Assembly: GCA_964595645.1 (NCBI GenBank)
Contig: CAZQQT010000003.1
Location: 128,001 to 192,000 of the forward strand
Length of the DNA: 64,000 bases
Origin: an uncultured Thermococci archaeon
GTDB lineage: Archaea; Methanobacteriota_B; Thermococci; Methanofastidiosales; B48-G16
Direction of reading: 5' to 3'
The notes under the pieces were generated by a model. The model ran no database searches. It was not told where the DNA came from and saw nothing but the letters and a program-made list of their open reading frames with translations. The position numbers and the translations under genes were made by a program. The stretch's first letter is position 1, and every line of letters begins with the position of its first letter. Below, in pieces: positions 41,911 to 45,590 of this stretch.

Positions 41911-42127
41911 TTACCATTGAAGCTCAATCGCATCCACGGGGCAGCTCTCGGCAGCCTTCTCCACACACTCTGATTCGTCGGGCACTTCTCCCGTATGAGC
42001 GTTCTCCTGCTGATACTCTTCAACTAATACTGATTTCCCTTCAGCATTCTCTTCAAATACGTAGGGACACAGTCTGTAACATACCACATGCAATACACGT
42101 ATCCTCATCTATCATTACTTTTACCAT
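41911..42127 (-). pseudogene. monocluster ferredoxin, frameshifted at about 42078-42083
   Basis: MVKVMIDEDTCIACG in one frame continues as CYRLCPYVF..AAESCPVDAI in another; total length 217 nt. Confidence 0.8.
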
Positions 42128-42150
42128 CTTTTCACCTTTTACAATTTAAT

Positions 42151-43061
42151 TTAATGTTTCCAATCCACGTATTTTTCCCCTCGTAACTCAGCGATGAGAT
42201 TTAACGCTGCCTTTGCTCCTTCTCCCACCGCAGCACCGATTTGTCTCACCTTGCCGGTACAATCGCCGGCCGCGTACACCCGTGGCACCTGCGTGTATTG
42301 GGTCTCGTCAACGACGAGTCGTCCGTCACGAATTGTGATTCCGAGAGCCCGAGCGAAATCCAACGAGCCACTCGTCCCCTCTGCAATAATCAATCCTTCC
42401 ATTTCTTTTACCCCTTCGTCAAACTTTACTCCCTGAAACATCTCATCGCCATATATACCTTTTATTCTATTTTTGTTTATGGGAATATTCCGTTTTTCTA
42501 ACTGTTTTTGTAGGATTCCACTCACGTCTAAATCCTTACCATTCGTGTAAATTGTCACGCCCTGTGTGTATTCGTACAGTTCTATCGCTTCTTTTACAAC
42601 AAGATCTTCAGAACCAAGTACTCCCACGGTTCTATCTCGGAAGAGAGGAGCATCACAGGTCACACAGTAACTTACACCTTTTCCTTCATATGCTTCTATT
42701 TCATCTATTTGTGGTTTTTGTGTTGGATCCCCGGTGAGAGTATTAACGATCTGGCAATATACGCGTTCGTAGCAGTTTCAACTCTGTAATTCCCATTATC
42801 TATTTTAATTAAAAGTACCTTTTCTCTTTTTACTTCTGCACCAAATTTTTCTGCCTGTCTTTTTCCGCGTTGAAGTATCTCTTTCCCGGAAATTCCTTCT
42901 GGAAATCCAAAATAATTTTCTATCACCCTCACCTTTTCCAAAAGTTTATCCGGCTCATCCAATACCAGTGTATCAAAATCTGCTCTCGATGTATATATCG
43001 CTGCAGATAGACCTGCCGGGCCGCCTCCAATTATCACTACATCGTATTTATTCTCACTCAT
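42151..43061 (-). pseudogene. trxB: thioredoxin reductase-like flavoprotein, frameshifted in an A5 run (42715-42719)
   Basis: GGGPAGLSAA in the first part. One extra A gives KPQIDEIEAYEGKGVSYCVTCD joining the second ORF, which carries YAAGD..QI..AVGEG. Confidence 0.85.
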
Positions 43062-43105: not shown

Positions 43106-43744
43106 TCATTCTTCCTCAAATATCACTACGACCTTTTCCACATCCCCCCGATGCTCGATTTTCTCGTGTATATCTTCTTTAATCGCATTGGCAAACTGGT
43201 GATCCTCGACAATGTCGATAGTAATCGTTACCGTTCCATCATCCACCGTTACCTCTTTGATCAGTTCTGTTCGAACGACATCCAGTCCTGTCATGGGGTT
43301 CATGACATGTCTGAGACGCTTTTTTACTACCTCCTCTGTTGTAGGCTCTCGTTCCGTTACGAGTCCATGTCGTTCCTCGTAATCCCGTATTGCCTCACGT
43401 AGCCCTTCCACCGCGAGTACAGAACAGTGTGCCTTTATTGACGGTAGACCTCCAAGTTCCTCAGATGCGTCCTGCCACGTGATCTTTTTTGCCTCGTCAA
43501 TGGTCTTTCCCTTCGCCATTTCTGTGATGATTGATCCTGTGGCAATATTCGACGCACAACCGTAGGACTCAAACTTGATATCTGTGATTTTATGTGTCTC
43601 CTCATCTACCTTAATGTACACAGATACCATATCACCGCATGCAGGACTGCCTTCTTGGGCCTTTCCGTCAGGATCCTCCATTTTTCCTACATTTTTTGGA
43701 TTTTTGAAATGCTCTATTACCGTCTCACTATATGGTGTCTTCAT
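43106..43744 (-). CDS. iscU: IscU/NifU-N scaffold fused to a C-terminal DUF59-like domain
   Basis: HF.NP.NVG, PACGD, YGCAS, KAHCS; C-terminal L..V.NP.TG.DVV. Confidence 0.88.
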   Translation of the reverse strand: MKTPYSETVIEHFKNPKNVGKMEDPDGKAQEGSPACGDMVSVYIKVDEETHKITDIKFESYGCASNIATGSIITEMAKGKTIDEAKKITWQDASEELGGLPSIKAHCSVLAVEGLREAIRDYEERHGLVTEREPTTEEVVKKRLRHVMNPMTGLDVVRTELIKEVTVDDGTVTITIDIVEDHQFANAIKEDIHEKIEHRGDVEKVVVIFEEE

Positions 43745-43748
43745 ATAT

Positions 43749-44918
43749 TTATTCCTCCTTTCCTAATGGACTTATCTCCCTCAATCTCTCCACGATATCG
43801 GATACAGTGGTAACAACGATATCAACTTCATTCATGGTGTTGAACCGCCCTAGCGTAAACCGTACCGAGCCATGAGCCCGTTCATGGTTCCCCCCGATGC
43901 CCATTATTACATGGCTCGCCTCAAGCGAGCGACTGAAACATGCTGAGCCGGTGCTGACCGCGACGCCTCGCATATCCATGTGAAGCGTAATAGATTCGCC
44001 TTCTACGTAATGGAACGTGATGTTCGCATTGTGCGGTACTCTCTGCTCTCTGGAACCGTTCAAGGTTACATCGGGGATCTCTGAGAGAATACGATCAATG
44101 AGATGATTCCTCATTTTCTCCAGTTTAGTGTTCTCTTTAGGTGTGACCAGCTCTACTGCTTTTGCGAACCCGATGGCGCCGGGAATATTCTCGAGTCCTC
44201 CCCGCGTATTGAACTCCTGGAATCCACCATCCATTATCTTGGTGAGAGGCGCCCCTTCACGTACGTAGAGGCCTCCAATCCCCTTGGGGCCATGAATCGT
44301 ATGTGCCGATACTGTTATCATATCTACTGGTATCTCCTGAACGTCTATAGGCACTCGTGTGAAGGTATGGGTCGCGTCCGTGTGGAACAACACGTTGTTT
44401 TCCTTGCATATCTCCGCGATCGTTTTGATATCCTGCAGCGTTCCTATTTCTTGGTTCGAGTGTTGTATAGACACGAGAATTGTCCTCTCCGTTATTGCAT
44501 CATCCAGTTGATCGAGGTCCACGAACCCGTCACTGTCAACATTGAGCTGTGTCACCTCAAACCCTTCTTTCTCTAGTGTTTTCGCACTGTGGAGCACGGG
44601 GAAATCTTCTATTTTTGAGGTAATAATATGGGTTCCCTTTCTCTCTCCGAGTTTCTTAGCGACTCCTTTAAGTGCGAGGTTGCTGGATTCTGCAGAACCC
44701 GAGGTGAAGATGATCTCGTTCGGATCGGCACCGAGTGTTGTGGCAATTGTTCCCCGTGCACTGTCAAGACTTTCCTTGGCTTCGACACCCAACGAGTATC
44801 CAAACTCGGAGGTAGGTACCGTGTATGTATTGAAAAAGTACGGTTTCATCGCCTCGAGCACTCGTTCGTCCATTCTTGTGCTGGATGCATTGTCCATGTA
44901 AATAAAGTTGTCATCCAT
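43749..44918 (-). CDS. iscS: IscS/NifS-like protein with a degenerate PLP site
   Basis: YMDNAS, FTSG..ES.N, GPKG, STGSAC retained; SAHT replaces SAHK and IEDFPV replaces EHxAV. Confidence 0.85.
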   Translation of the reverse strand: MDDNFIYMDNASSTRMDERVLEAMKPYFFNTYTVPTSEFGYSLGVEAKESLDSARGTIATTLGADPNEIIFTSGSAESSNLALKGVAKKLGERKGTHIITSKIEDFPVLHSAKTLEKEGFEVTQLNVDSDGFVDLDQLDDAITERTILVSIQHSNQEIGTLQDIKTIAEICKENNVLFHTDATHTFTRVPIDVQEIPVDMITVSAHTIHGPKGIGGLYVREGAPLTKIMDGGFQEFNTRGGLENIPGAIGFAKAVELVTPKENTKLEKMRNHLIDRILSEIPDVTLNGSREQRVPHNANITFHYVEGESITLHMDMRGVAVSTGSACFSRSLEASHVIMGIGGNHERAHGSVRFTLGRFNTMNEVDIVVTTVSDIVERLREISPLGKEE

Positions 44919-44926
44919 CGTACCAC

Positions 44927-45349
44927 CTATGAGATAAACAAGGTAATTTTAGACTCTCTCGCTTCTTTAATGTAGGTTCCTACTGCACAGTACTCGGTGA
45001 TTATGTCATCACGCAGATCGTCCTTCTCAAGCCCCATAATGTCCATGGTCATATCGCAGGCAAGTATCTTACCACCTAACTCTACGTAATCCTGTAACAT
45101 CTCCTCCAGCGATCGCACATTCGCCTTCTTCATCCTCCGATTCAGTAGCCATTTTCCAAGGCCGAGGAAGTGCATTCGAGAGAGGGGTCCTTGCTCCAGC
45201 TGCCCCTTTTTGAGCCTTTCAAGTCCCCAGAATGTGAAGTACATCGATACATCCATGCCCATGGCAAGCGCACCATTGCCGATGATGAGGGCACTGTAGA
45301 GTTTGTCCATCTCACCACTCTGTACGATCAGCGTGACCTTCTCTGTCAT
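44927..45349 (-). CDS. DsrE2/DrsH-like sulfur carrier
   Basis: SG.MDK..A.AMG..V.MYFTFWGL, AC.MTMDIMG. Confidence 0.9.
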   Translation of the reverse strand: MTEKVTLIVQSGEMDKLYSALIIGNGALAMGMDVSMYFTFWGLERLKKGQLEQGPLSRMHFLGLGKWLLNRRMKKANVRSLEEMLQDYVELGGKILACDMTMDIMGLEKDDLRDDIITEYCAVGTYIKEARESKITLFIS

Positions 45350-45350
45350 C

Positions 45351-45590
45351 TTACTCCTCCTCGGGAATCTTGATTGTGATTATCCACGTACCATTCTTCT
45401 CCTCGACGCTTACAAGCTCTAACCCAAGAGACTCCACTGCCATAGGGATCTCCTTTTTGGATGCAGGGTGATCGCCGATGATCTCGACGATATCGCCAGG
45501 ATTAGCCTTCCTCACAGCCTTCCGGGTTTCTACCAGCGGAACTGGACATGTCTCTCCTACCACTGTTATCTTTTTTTTCACAATTTTCAC
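45351..45590 (-). CDS. tusA: TusA-family sulfurtransferase
   Basis: GETCPVP, G..VE...DHP. Confidence 0.9.
   Translation of the reverse strand: MKIVKKKITVVGETCPVPLVETRKAVRKANPGDIVEIIGDHPASKKEIPMAVESLGLELVSVEEKNGTWIITIKIPEEE

What the first reader, a model, noticed from the sequence alone, without database searches (positions are those of the whole stretch)
43749..44918. IscS homologue with coordinated loss of catalytic residues in an otherwise intact ORF
Seen, relative to the E. coli IscS consensus: EHKAV to EDFPV (His104), NNE to NQE, DATQ to DATH, SGHK to SAHT (Lys206; codon ACG at 44298-44300), RSGT to RGGL, and NPAS to VPTS. The Cys loop and C-terminal Arg (SVRF) are retained and there are no stops or frameshifts. 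Several changes clustered at one site argue for a repurposed pseudo-enzyme rather than a sequencing error, although the K to T change alone is a single base.
Basis: partly seen in the sequence, partly recalled or inferred. Interest (0 to 1): 0.75.

Follow-up and report, generated by a model that had tools for sequence, protein, structure and literature searches.

The report
Lysine-less IscS in sulfur-relay operon
This archaeal gene encodes a well-conserved look-alike of the cysteine desulfurase IscS that has lost the residues needed to hold its vitamin-B6 cofactor but keeps its sulfur-carrying cysteine. It sits in a four-gene cassette (TusA, DsrE-like, IscS-like, IscU-DUF59) shared by many anaerobes, so it is a repurposed protein rather than a broken one.

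Summary
ORF 43749-44918 (-) is an intact 389-aa IscS/NifS-fold protein with His104->Asp, Asn155->Gln, Gln183->His, Lys206->Thr (ACG at 44298-44300) and Thr243->Leu. The Cys loop and the C-terminal Arg are kept.

It is neither an error nor private decay:
- All 120 nearest database homologues and 55 genome loci from bacteria and archaea share the signature.
- dN/dS is about 0.05-0.15 in the least saturated pairs.
- The clade is one strongly supported branch.
- The genome also has a canonical IscS-IscU pair.

The gene is the orthologue of Methanosarcina acetivorans IscS1 (MA0808), noted in 2020 as lysine-less but never studied. It lies in the conserved cassette tusA-dsrE-iscS*-iscU::DUF59. This scan has already met the cassette in at least 10 other genomes.

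New here:
- The clade is nested in a wider IscS subfamily with Cys-Phe in the loop, an IscU::DUF59 partner and a TusA neighbour. Most members keep the lysine; it was lost at least 3 and probably about 7 times.
- One lysine-bearing relative has the full cassette, so the sulfur carriers predate the loss.
- Four near-complete relatives have this protein as their only IscS/NifS/SufS-like gene.

Likely role: a non-catalytic Cys-loop partner of IscU in Fe-S assembly linked to a persulfide relay. The direction of sulfur flow is unresolved.

The parts
43749..44918 (-). iscS* : 389-aa IscS/NifS-fold protein lacking the PLP lysine and four other PLP contacts; Cys loop intact
   Evidence: ORF and translation. 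Pfam Aminotran_5. AF2 model with pLDDT 89.6 and TM 0.93 to NFS1/IscS. Scores below every NCBIfam equivalog cut-off.
44298..44300 (-). codon ACG = Thr207, at the position of the Schiff-base Lys206 of E. coli IscS
   Evidence: This position is T/L/S/N/V/I across the clade and K in all canonical sequences.
44604..44606 (-). codon GAT = Asp105 (E. coli His104, which stacks on the PLP ring); followed by invariant Phe106
   Evidence: Asp in 55/55 clade members, His in 26/26 canonical sequences.
44367..44369 (-). codon CAT = His184 (E. coli Gln183, PLP O3' contact)
44193..44195 (-). Leu242 (E. coli Thr243, phosphate contact from the other subunit)
   Evidence: L/V/I/M and others in the clade, T in 26/26 canonical sequences.
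43938..43940 (-). Cys327, the persulfide/cluster-ligand cysteine of the mobile loop (STGSACFS), followed by clade-specific Phe328
   Evidence: Invariant in all sequences. Phe328 marks the wider subfamily.
43106..43744 (-). iscU* : IscU scaffold (Cys36, Asp38, Cys63, Cys107, LPSIK) fused to a C-terminal DUF59/FeS_assembly_P domain
   Evidence: Pfam NifU_N plus FeS_assembly_P. Conservation. The long form accompanies every clade member, whereas canonical loci have a short IscU.
44927..45349 (-). dsrE-like (Pfam DrsE_2) small sulfur-carrier protein with invariant Cys98 (ACxMTM)
   Evidence: Pfam. Weak NCBIfam DsrE2 match. Alignment A3 has 80% mean column identity.
45351..45590 (-). tusA-like sulfur carrier with invariant Cys15 in a CPxP motif
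   Evidence: Pfam TusA. Alignment A2. Arg23 and Arg/Lys27 match the E. coli TusA residues that bind IscS.
41911..43061 (-). trxB-like flavoprotein and small ferredoxin directly downstream, each interrupted by a frameshift in this assembly; not a conserved part of the cassette
   Evidence: Pfam on the two halves. Three-frame reading. Not found beside the cassette in the other loci.

Best explanation
The gene encodes a functional but non-catalytic IscS paralogue (IscS*).

What is shown or nearly so:
- It cannot bind PLP covalently. It has lost the ring-stacking His, the O3' Gln and the phosphate Thr, so it does not itself desulfurate cysteine.
- Selection instead keeps its fold, its mobile Cys327 loop and a re-lined former cofactor pocket.

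What is inferred:
- It works as the partner of the adjacent IscU::DUF59 scaffold. Cys327 either carries a persulfide to the scaffold or serves as the fourth ligand of the nascent cluster, as in Archaeoglobus fulgidus IscS-IscU.
- It is coupled to the TusA and DsrE-like cysteine carriers encoded upstream. TusA probably docks on helix alpha-2 next to the Cys loop, as in E. coli IscS-TusA.
- In this clade sulfur therefore reaches the Cys loop or scaffold from sulfide or sulfane sulfur, probably through TusA/DsrE, and not from PLP chemistry on this protein.
- The whole set is a cysteine-desulfurase-independent, ISC/MIS-type Fe-S assembly and sulfur-trafficking module of anaerobes. This genome probably acquired it horizontally and runs it beside a canonical IscS-IscU.
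For: Loss of PLP chemistry:
- Lys206, His104, Gln183 and Thr243 equivalents are replaced in all clade members.
- The protein scores below all NCBIfam cysteine-desulfurase equivalog cut-offs, while the genome's canonical paralogue passes the NifS model.

Still functional:
- dN/dS is 0.05-0.15.
- Identity is 64-76% across bacteria and archaea, and the clade has SH-aLRT 100.
- Of 17 clade-discriminating columns, all but the former Lys position are essentially invariant: D105, F106, Q152, Q156, T183, H184, R188, F233, F328.
- Cys327 and Arg353 are invariant. The fold is intact.

Partnership with the neighbours:
- tusA-dsrE-iscS*-iscU::DUF59 (or iscS*-iscU*-tusA-dsrE) occurs in most of the 55 loci and in all 5 relatives fetched.
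- The carrier cysteines of TusA and DsrE and the three Cys plus Asp of IscU are invariant.
- The E. coli TusA-docking network (IscS Trp45, Glu49, Asp52; TusA Arg27, Arg31; PMC2854127) has counterparts here. Position 45 is hydrophobic in 55/55 aligned members. Position 49 is acidic in 53/55 clade members, against 3/26 canonical sequences. Position 52 is acidic. TusA Arg23 is invariant and position 27 is always Arg or Lys.

Independence from cysteine desulfurase:
- Four relatives that are 96-98% complete have IscS* as their only IscS/NifS/SufS-like gene and IscU* as their only IscU. Their other Aminotran_5 hits read as an SQK-type aminotransferase and a SepCysS-like protein, judged from motifs.

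Precedent:
- A. fulgidus IscS lacks Lys and PLP and gives a Cys ligand to the [2Fe-2S] cluster on IscU (PMC7585200; bioRxiv 10.1101/2024.03.20.586028).
- Lys loss recurs at least 3 and probably about 7 times in this subfamily, and in 0 of 39 non-subfamily sequences sampled. PLP chemistry therefore appears dispensable in this subfamily.
Against: - Nothing biochemical was tested. PLP absence, persulfide carriage and Fe-S assembly are all inferred.
- The relay genes are not a compensation for the lost chemistry. Lysine-bearing relatives with apparently intact PLP sites have the same partners. P0133, P0152 and P0167 have iscS-iscU::DUF59-tusA, and P0185 has the full four-gene cassette. Sulfur could therefore flow outward, from IscS to TusA/DsrE as in E. 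coli, and the source in the lysine-less clade would remain unexplained.
- Some clade members lack detectable TusA/DsrE within 5 kb (Methanococcoides L033, L043).
- Retention of Arg353, which binds the substrate carboxylate in canonical enzymes, is unexplained.
- A. fulgidus iscSU did not complement an E. coli isc/suf mutant even with sulfide (bioRxiv 10.1101/2024.03.20.586028).
Confidence: 0.6

Rival explanations
1. Purely structural, A. fulgidus-type partner. IscS* only stabilises IscU* and lends Cys327 as a cluster ligand, and free sulfide enters the scaffold directly. TusA and DsrE are downstream acceptors, or serve other thiolation pathways, and do not feed IscS*.
For: - The A. fulgidus precedent (PMC7585200).
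- TusA and DsrE also accompany lysine-bearing relatives, as expected if they are acceptors.
- ThiF/ThiS/JAB and ThiI genes lie beside related loci.
- SMS/MIS systems can use sulfide directly (PMC13066941).
Against: - In the lysine-less clade there is then no source for anything TusA/DsrE could accept.
- Even so, both carriers are among the most conserved proteins of the cassette (DsrE 80% mean column identity).
- The TusA-docking residues on IscS* are also kept.
Confidence: 0.22
2. The former PLP pocket has become a new ligand site, for example for Fe(II), another metal or a persulfide. IscS* would then supply or gate a second substrate of cluster assembly.
For: - The replacements are not random. 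His->Asp105 and Gln->His184 join the retained Asp181 and His206, all metal-ligand types and all invariant.
- The former Lys position itself is free to vary.
- Gln152, Gln156, Thr183 and Arg188 are newly fixed.
Against: - Three newly fixed aromatic residues (Phe106, Phe233, Phe328) look more like hydrophobic filling of an empty cavity.
- No known precedent.
Confidence: 0.1
3. It is still an enzyme, using non-covalently bound PLP, another lysine or another cofactor, possibly on a substrate other than cysteine or in selenium trafficking.
For: - Asp181, Ser204, His206 and Arg353 are retained.
- The N-terminal substrate loop is remodelled in the whole subfamily.
- The best NCBIfam hit of the TusA-like protein is the selenium-linked YedF, though below its cut-off.
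Against: - Five PLP contacts are lost together.
- No new invariant lysine appears. The GPKG Lys is often Arg.
- The adjacent scaffold and DUF59 domain point to Fe-S assembly.
Confidence: 0.05
4. Sequencing error or a decaying pseudogene private to this genome.
For: The K->T change is a single base. Two genes just downstream carry frameshifts in this assembly.
Against: About 175 homologues share the same signature, the gene is under purifying selection and the frame is intact.
Confidence: 0.01

Closest known systems
Methanosarcina acetivorans IscS1 (MA0808) in the isc1 cluster: MA0811 HIT, MA0810 SirA/TusA-like, MA0809 DrsE-superfamily, MA0808 IscS1, MA0807 IscU1 of 24 kDa (Deere et al. 2020, PMC7585200)
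   Same: - Same clade. Methanosarcina loci are 67-69% identical to the window protein.
- Same motifs in the paper's Fig. S2: EDFPV, NQE, DATH, SAHT, RAGV, GSACFS.
- Same neighbours and the same long IscU.
   Different: - The window's cassette lacks the HIT gene and is followed by frameshifted trxB-like and ferredoxin genes.
- The host is a non-methanogenic archaeon (no mcrA) whose own family otherwise lacks the cassette.
- IscS1 was only noted as lysine-less and insoluble when expressed; it has never been characterised.
Archaeoglobus fulgidus IscS-IscU (PDB 4EB5, 4EB7, 4HVK, 4R5F)
   Same: - IscS-fold protein without the Schiff-base lysine and without desulfurase activity.
- Keeps the Cys loop, which ligates the [2Fe-2S] cluster on IscU.
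- Fold match TM 0.89-0.91 when normalised to the model, 0.93-0.95 when normalised to the chain.
   Different: - Only 40-42% identical, no closer than E. coli IscS.
- A different and smaller substitution set: GNPSS, EH and NNE are kept; Q->A, HK->ND and T->S (Fig. S2 of PMC7585200; machine-read). This looks like an independent loss.
E. coli IscS-TusA-TusBCD sulfur relay and the IscS-IscU complex (PDB 3LVJ, 3LVL; PMC2854127)
   Same: - The same three protein types in a relay: IscS fold, TusA, and a DsrE/TusD-family protein.
- The TusA-docking residues on helix alpha-2 and on TusA have counterparts.
- The IscU scaffold residues are kept.
   Different: - E. coli IscS makes the persulfide from cysteine with PLP and passes it outward. 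IscS* cannot make it.
- There are no HscBA, Fdx, CyaY or IscX genes in the cassette.
- IscU carries a DUF59 domain.
Minimal iron-sulfur system MIS (MisS-MisU) of archaea and anaerobic bacteria (reviewed in PMC13066941)
   Same: A two-component IscS/IscU-like core without chaperones, found in anaerobes. M. acetivorans isc1 is counted as one of its three MIS copies.
   Different: MIS is defined with a cysteine desulfurase MisS. This clade lacks the catalytic residues and adds TusA, DsrE and a DUF59 fusion. None of these features is mentioned in the sections of that review read here.

Membership tests
Type I PLP-dependent cysteine desulfurase (IscS/NifS) | Class-V aminotransferase fold of IscS/NFS1 | tested here: met
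   Pfam Aminotran_5 covers residues 6-367. AF2 model has TM 0.93 to NFS1 and E. coli IscS.
Type I PLP-dependent cysteine desulfurase (IscS/NifS) | Schiff-base lysine in the S-x-H-K motif | tested here: not met
   Thr207 (SAHT). The position is T/L/S/N/V/I in the clade and K in 26/26 canonical sequences.
Type I PLP-dependent cysteine desulfurase (IscS/NifS) | Other PLP contacts: His104 stacking, Gln183, Thr243' (roles recalled from the E. coli IscS structure) | tested here: not met
   Asp105, His184 and Leu242. Asp181, Ser204 and His206 are retained.
Type I PLP-dependent cysteine desulfurase (IscS/NifS) | Catalytic Cys on the mobile loop and C-terminal substrate Arg | tested here: met
   Cys327 and Arg353 are invariant.
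Type I PLP-dependent cysteine desulfurase (IscS/NifS) | Score above the curated NCBIfam equivalog cut-offs | tested here: not met
   NifS 452 < 530.75; IscS 403.5 < 548 and 398.8 < 643.2. The genome's canonical paralogue passes NifS with 540.6.
Type I PLP-dependent cysteine desulfurase (IscS/NifS) | PLP absorbance and cysteine desulfurase activity | not testable with these tools
   Needs purified protein.
Lysine-less IscS1 (MA0808) clade | Signature V34, D105-F106, Q152, Q156, T183-H184, R188, non-Lys207, F233, non-Thr242, C327-F328 | tested here: met
   All are present in the window protein. They fully discriminate 55 clade members from 26 canonical sequences.
Lysine-less IscS1 (MA0808) clade | Falls inside the clade on a tree | tested here: met
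   The clade is one side of a branch with SH-aLRT 100. Identity is at least 63% within the clade and at most 54% to anything outside it.
Lysine-less IscS1 (MA0808) clade | Adjacent IscU::DUF59, TusA and DrsE_2 genes | tested here: met
A. fulgidus-type PLP-free IscS | Same lineage and same substitutions (Lys->Asp199, His->Asn) | tested here: not met
   40-42% identity and a different substitution set.
A. fulgidus-type PLP-free IscS | Cys-loop cysteine ligates the [2Fe-2S] cluster on IscU | not testable with these tools
   Needs a structure or spectroscopy of the IscS*-IscU* complex.

The most novel reading that the evidence does not exclude
The emptied cofactor pocket was not merely filled in. 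It was rebuilt into a new binding site: invariant Asp105, Asp181, His184 and His206, plus newly fixed Gln152, Gln156 and Arg188. This site would hold iron or a sulfur species. IscS* would then be an active donor or gate in a cysteine-independent Fe-S assembly line, fed by TusA/DsrE in the reverse direction to the E. coli relay.
Probability: 0.1. Interest if true: 0.85.

Novelty: new variant of a known kind. Interest (0 to 1): 0.58.

Why it matters
How strict anaerobes, methanogens among them, put sulfur into iron-sulfur clusters without a cysteine desulfurase is an open question. [quoted passage not shown]

This family offers a concrete handle on that question:
- It is a widespread, strongly conserved cassette.
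- In it the desulfurase has demonstrably given up PLP chemistry while keeping its cysteine loop, its scaffold partner and two persulfide carriers.
- In some near-complete genomes it is the only IscS/IscU-type system.

The wider subfamily found here contains natural series of lysine-bearing, half-eroded and fully remodelled forms with the same partners. That gives ready-made comparison material for biochemistry. It also warns against the simple idea that the carriers were recruited to replace the lost enzyme activity.

Tried and rejected
The verdict was 'no answer', score 0.00. This is no evidence either way.
- Printing the A. fulgidus alignment from the PDB search: engineered 9WE*/9WF* variants filled the five alignment slots and the two requested. 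The comparison was taken instead from Fig. S2 of PMC7585200, which is machine-read, so its letters are approximate.
- The Pagnier 2015 BBA paper is not held.
- Model coordinates were not delivered to the script box, so the distances between Asp105, Asp181, His184 and His206 could not be measured.
- Mapping of E. coli IscS Arg220 and Arg237 onto IscS*: dropped, because the local offset makes the equivalence unsafe (Arg220 aligns with Glu221, Arg237 with Phe236).
- Paper searches for the cassette found only Deere et al. 2020. Absence from the held library does not prove that nothing is published.
- trxB-like and ferredoxin genes as part of the cassette: rejected, because they are not conserved beside it.
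- Sequencing error or pseudogene: rejected.
Full report
**1. The observation**

Window 43749-44918 (minus strand) is an uninterrupted 389-codon ORF. Its product matches Pfam Aminotran_5 over its whole length. Its best solved relatives are cysteine desulfurases: IscS, NFS1, NifS and A. fulgidus IscS.

- EDFPV (Asp105 for E. coli His104)
- NQE (Gln156 for Asn155)
- DATH (His184 for Gln183)
- SAHT (Thr207 for Lys206; codon ACG at 44298-44300)
- RGGL (Leu242 for Thr243)
- VPTS (Val34 for Asn35)

GSACFS (Cys327) and GSVRF (Arg353) are kept.

An AlphaFold2 model built on a 53-row alignment is confident (mean pLDDT 89.6). It superposes on NFS1 and IscS at TM 0.93. The only poorly defined stretches are loops 37-40, 234-240 and the Cys loop 326-331.

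**2. Not an error, not private decay**

- The 120 nearest proteins in the 5.8-billion-protein collection are 70-76% identical. All have Asp at 105 and His at 184. Position 207 is Thr (115) or Ile (5).
- A genome scan brought in 55 loci of the same clade at 63-71% identity and 26 canonical IscS loci at 45-52%.
- Seventeen alignment columns separate the two groups without overlap: G33A, N34V, S36T, H105D, x106F, C112A, M152Q, N156Q, V183T, Q184H, x188R, K207(T/L/S/N/V), x233F, I248A, T328F, L338I, L343G.
- Only the former lysine position is variable inside the clade. The others are newly fixed. That is the mark of a re-lined pocket, not of drift.
- Pairwise dN/dS for the least saturated pairs is 0.05-0.15.
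- The clade is one side of a branch with SH-aLRT 100.
- The lysine of GPKG is Arg in a quarter of members, so it cannot be a general replacement Schiff-base residue.
- NCBIfam places the protein below every cysteine-desulfurase equivalog cut-off. The genome's other copy passes the NifS model.

**3. The rest of the genome**

- The assembly is 1.97 Mb in 14 contigs and 99.96% complete.
- It has a canonical IscS (EH, NNE, DAVQ, SSHK, RSGT, GSACSS) followed by a plain IscU on another contig.
- No SufB/D family gene was found, and no mcrA.
- The five other genomes of its own family show only the canonical type, or no match at all in one 89%-complete genome.
- 16 of 28 other genomes of the same order carry the lysine-less type. 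None of 7 from a further family of the class do.
- On the tree the clade's backbone is short and poorly resolved. Archaea sit in at least four places among Chloroflexota, Syntrophales, Bacillota and Actinomycetota. The cassette therefore moves horizontally, and this genome probably acquired it.

**4. The cassette**

The gene is the third of four tightly packed minus-strand genes:
- tusA-like (45351-45590; Cys15 in CPxP)
- dsrE-like of Pfam DrsE_2 (44927-45349; Cys98)
- iscS* (43749-44918)
- iscU fused to DUF59/FeS_assembly_P (43106-43744; Cys36, Asp38, Cys63, Cys107, LPSIK)

The same four genes, in this order or as iscS*-iscU*-tusA-dsrE, accompany most of the 55 loci at 50-77% identity each. 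Canonical loci have only a short IscU. Five relatives fetched from the same order all have the full cassette.

In this window the next two genes, a trxB-like flavoprotein and a small ferredoxin, are each broken by a frameshift. They are not conserved beside the cassette elsewhere.

**5. What is known**

- Deere et al. [quoted passage not shown] They note that IscS1 (MA0808) lacks the catalytic lysine and other PLP residues, that IscU1 is 24 kDa, and that four neighbouring genes have no known function.
- Their supplement names MA0809 a DrsE-superfamily protein and MA0810 SirA-like.
- Their Fig. S2 shows IscS1 with the same motifs as the window protein.
- The same figure shows that A. fulgidus IscS keeps GNPSS, EH and NNE, and changes Q->A, HK->ND and T->S. 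It is only 40-42% identical to my model. It is therefore a separate loss of the lysine.
- A 2026 review calls MIS the least studied system, with unknown electron donors. In the sections read here it does not mention these features.
- Other agents of this scan have met the same cassette in at least ten other genomes and read it much as I do.

One genome of the same order has a 54%-identical protein (P0121) with Lys->Leu but with His105, Gln184 and Thr242 intact. It is followed by IscU::DUF59, a ferredoxin and a second IscU.

I searched with that protein and aligned the resulting sequences (121 including P0001). This showed a broad 'Cys-Phe' subfamily with these marks:
- Phe after the catalytic Cys
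- Gln152 and Gln156
- an aromatic residue at 233
- Asn34 lost
- a two-residue insertion in the N-terminal loop

Members come from Bathyarchaeota, Aerophobetes, Acetothermia/Bipolaricaulia and others.

Of 82 such proteins, 65 keep the lysine and 17 lack it (Leu 12, Met 2, Val 1, Thr 2). None of the 39 proteins outside the subfamily lacks it. On FastTree and IQ-TREE trees the lysine state needs 7 changes, of which at least 3-4 are forced by strongly supported branches.

The nearest relatives of the window's clade are two groups:
- A group with Gln184->Leu, and in part His105->Gln, that still has the lysine.
- An Aerophobetes group with all PLP residues in place.

Gene contexts:
- Lysine-bearing P0133, P0152 and P0167 have iscS-iscU::DUF59-tusA.
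- Lysine-bearing P0185 has the full iscS-iscU::DUF59-tusA-dsrE cassette. Its proteins are 56-64% identical to those of the window.
- Half-eroded P0207 has the cassette with a MarR gene inserted.

The IscU::DUF59, TusA and DsrE partners therefore predate the loss of PLP chemistry. Asn->Gln at 156 is a subfamily trait, not a sign of inactivation.

**7. TusA docking**

In E. coli, IscS Trp45, Glu49 and Asp52 on helix alpha-2 pair with TusA Phe58, Arg27 and Arg31, right beside Cys328 (PMC2854127). Numbering is identical over residues 44-55.

| Position | Lysine-less clade | Wider Cys-Phe subfamily | Outside the subfamily |
|---|---|---|---|
| IscS 45 | hydrophobic in all 55 aligned | hydrophobic in all 82 | Arg or Gln in most |
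| IscS 49 | acidic in 53/55 | acidic in 80/82 | acidic in 3/26 canonical loci |
| IscS 52 | acidic in 48/55 | acidic in 82/82 | often acidic as well |
| TusA 23 | Arg, invariant | not tallied | not tallied |
| TusA 27 | always Arg or Lys | not tallied | not tallied |

They are indirect support for an E. coli-like TusA site next to the Cys loop.

**8. Independence from cysteine desulfurase**

In four 96-98% complete genomes of the same order, the Aminotran_5 family search finds three proteins:
- IscS*
- a protein with an SQK lysine motif that reads as an aminotransferase
- a protein with a CSGHKS motif that reads as SepCysS-like

The last two assignments rest on motifs only. These genomes have SufB, but IscU* is their only IscU. 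In them the cassette cannot be fed by a canonical desulfurase.

**9. Interpretation**

Shown:
- The substitutions are real.
- The family is conserved and under selection.
- The cassette and the wider subfamily exist.
- The lysine was lost repeatedly.

Inferred:
- The protein neither binds PLP nor desulfurates cysteine.
- Cys327 works with IscU::DUF59 as a persulfide carrier and/or cluster ligand.
- TusA docks beside Cys327.
- Sulfur comes from sulfide or sulfane sulfur, probably through TusA/DsrE.

The main uncertainty is the direction of sulfur flow, since the carriers also accompany lysine-bearing forms. The recurrent loss of the lysine in just this subfamily argues that PLP chemistry is dispensable in it. 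That fits a second sulfur entry route better than a purely outward relay.

**10. Verdict**

- The protein is a member of an already noticed but uncharacterised clade.
- It is a variant distinct from the one characterised PLP-free IscS, that of A. fulgidus.
- It is of moderate to good interest for Fe-S biogenesis in anaerobes.

Noticed in passing
window 42151-43061 (-) and 41911-42149 (-): The trxB-like flavoprotein right after the cassette is split by a frameshift. The shift lies in a run of A at about 42712-42720, just before GVSYCVTCD. The small ferredoxin after it is frameshifted inside its CIACGxC motif, at about 42080. Either both are pseudogenes or the assembly has homopolymer errors.
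   Followed up: partly
G000 whole genome: No SufB/SufD family (PF01458) gene was found in a 99.96% complete genome. The two IscS/IscU-type sets therefore appear to be its only recognisable Fe-S assembly systems. Relatives in genus g3 show the opposite pattern: SufB plus only the lysine-less set.
   Followed up: partly
L105 3012-5364 (G007 contig C30): A same-order genome carries an intermediate IscS (Lys->Leu, with His, Gln and Thr kept). It is followed by IscU::DUF59, a 65-aa ferredoxin and a second, plain IscU, with no TusA/DsrE nearby.
   Followed up: yes
L106 2-1480 and L107 3008-3868: Sulfite/nitrite-reductase-like genes (NIR_SIR, one with Fer4 domains) lie directly upstream and divergent from lysine-bearing iscS-iscU::DUF59-tusA sets in two Bathyarchaeota-type contigs. 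ThiF/ThiS/JAB genes (L106), a ThiF gene (L113) and a ThiI gene with a second Aminotran_5 gene (L110) also lie nearby.
   Followed up: no
L015 6148-7616 (also L019, L031, L032): In several Dehalococcoidia/Chloroflexia loci there is about 0.8-1.6 kb between iscS* and iscU*. In L015 the gap holds two Asp/Glu-racemase-family genes of about 245 aa. The other three loci were not examined.
   Followed up: no
PDB entries 9WEP-9WFY (search output): A recent series of variants of one 406-aa cysteine desulfurase is the closest solved relative by sequence. One variant (9WFY) itself reads AHL, NRE and DAAP at the lysine, Asn and Gln positions. It looks like an engineered PLP-site mutant.
   Followed up: no
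L033 and L043 (Methanococcoides and a Halobacteriota MAG): These clade members have no TusA/DsrE within 5 kb. A Thi4-family gene lies upstream, and a TBP-like fragment, FmdE and a polyferredoxin lie downstream.
   Followed up: no
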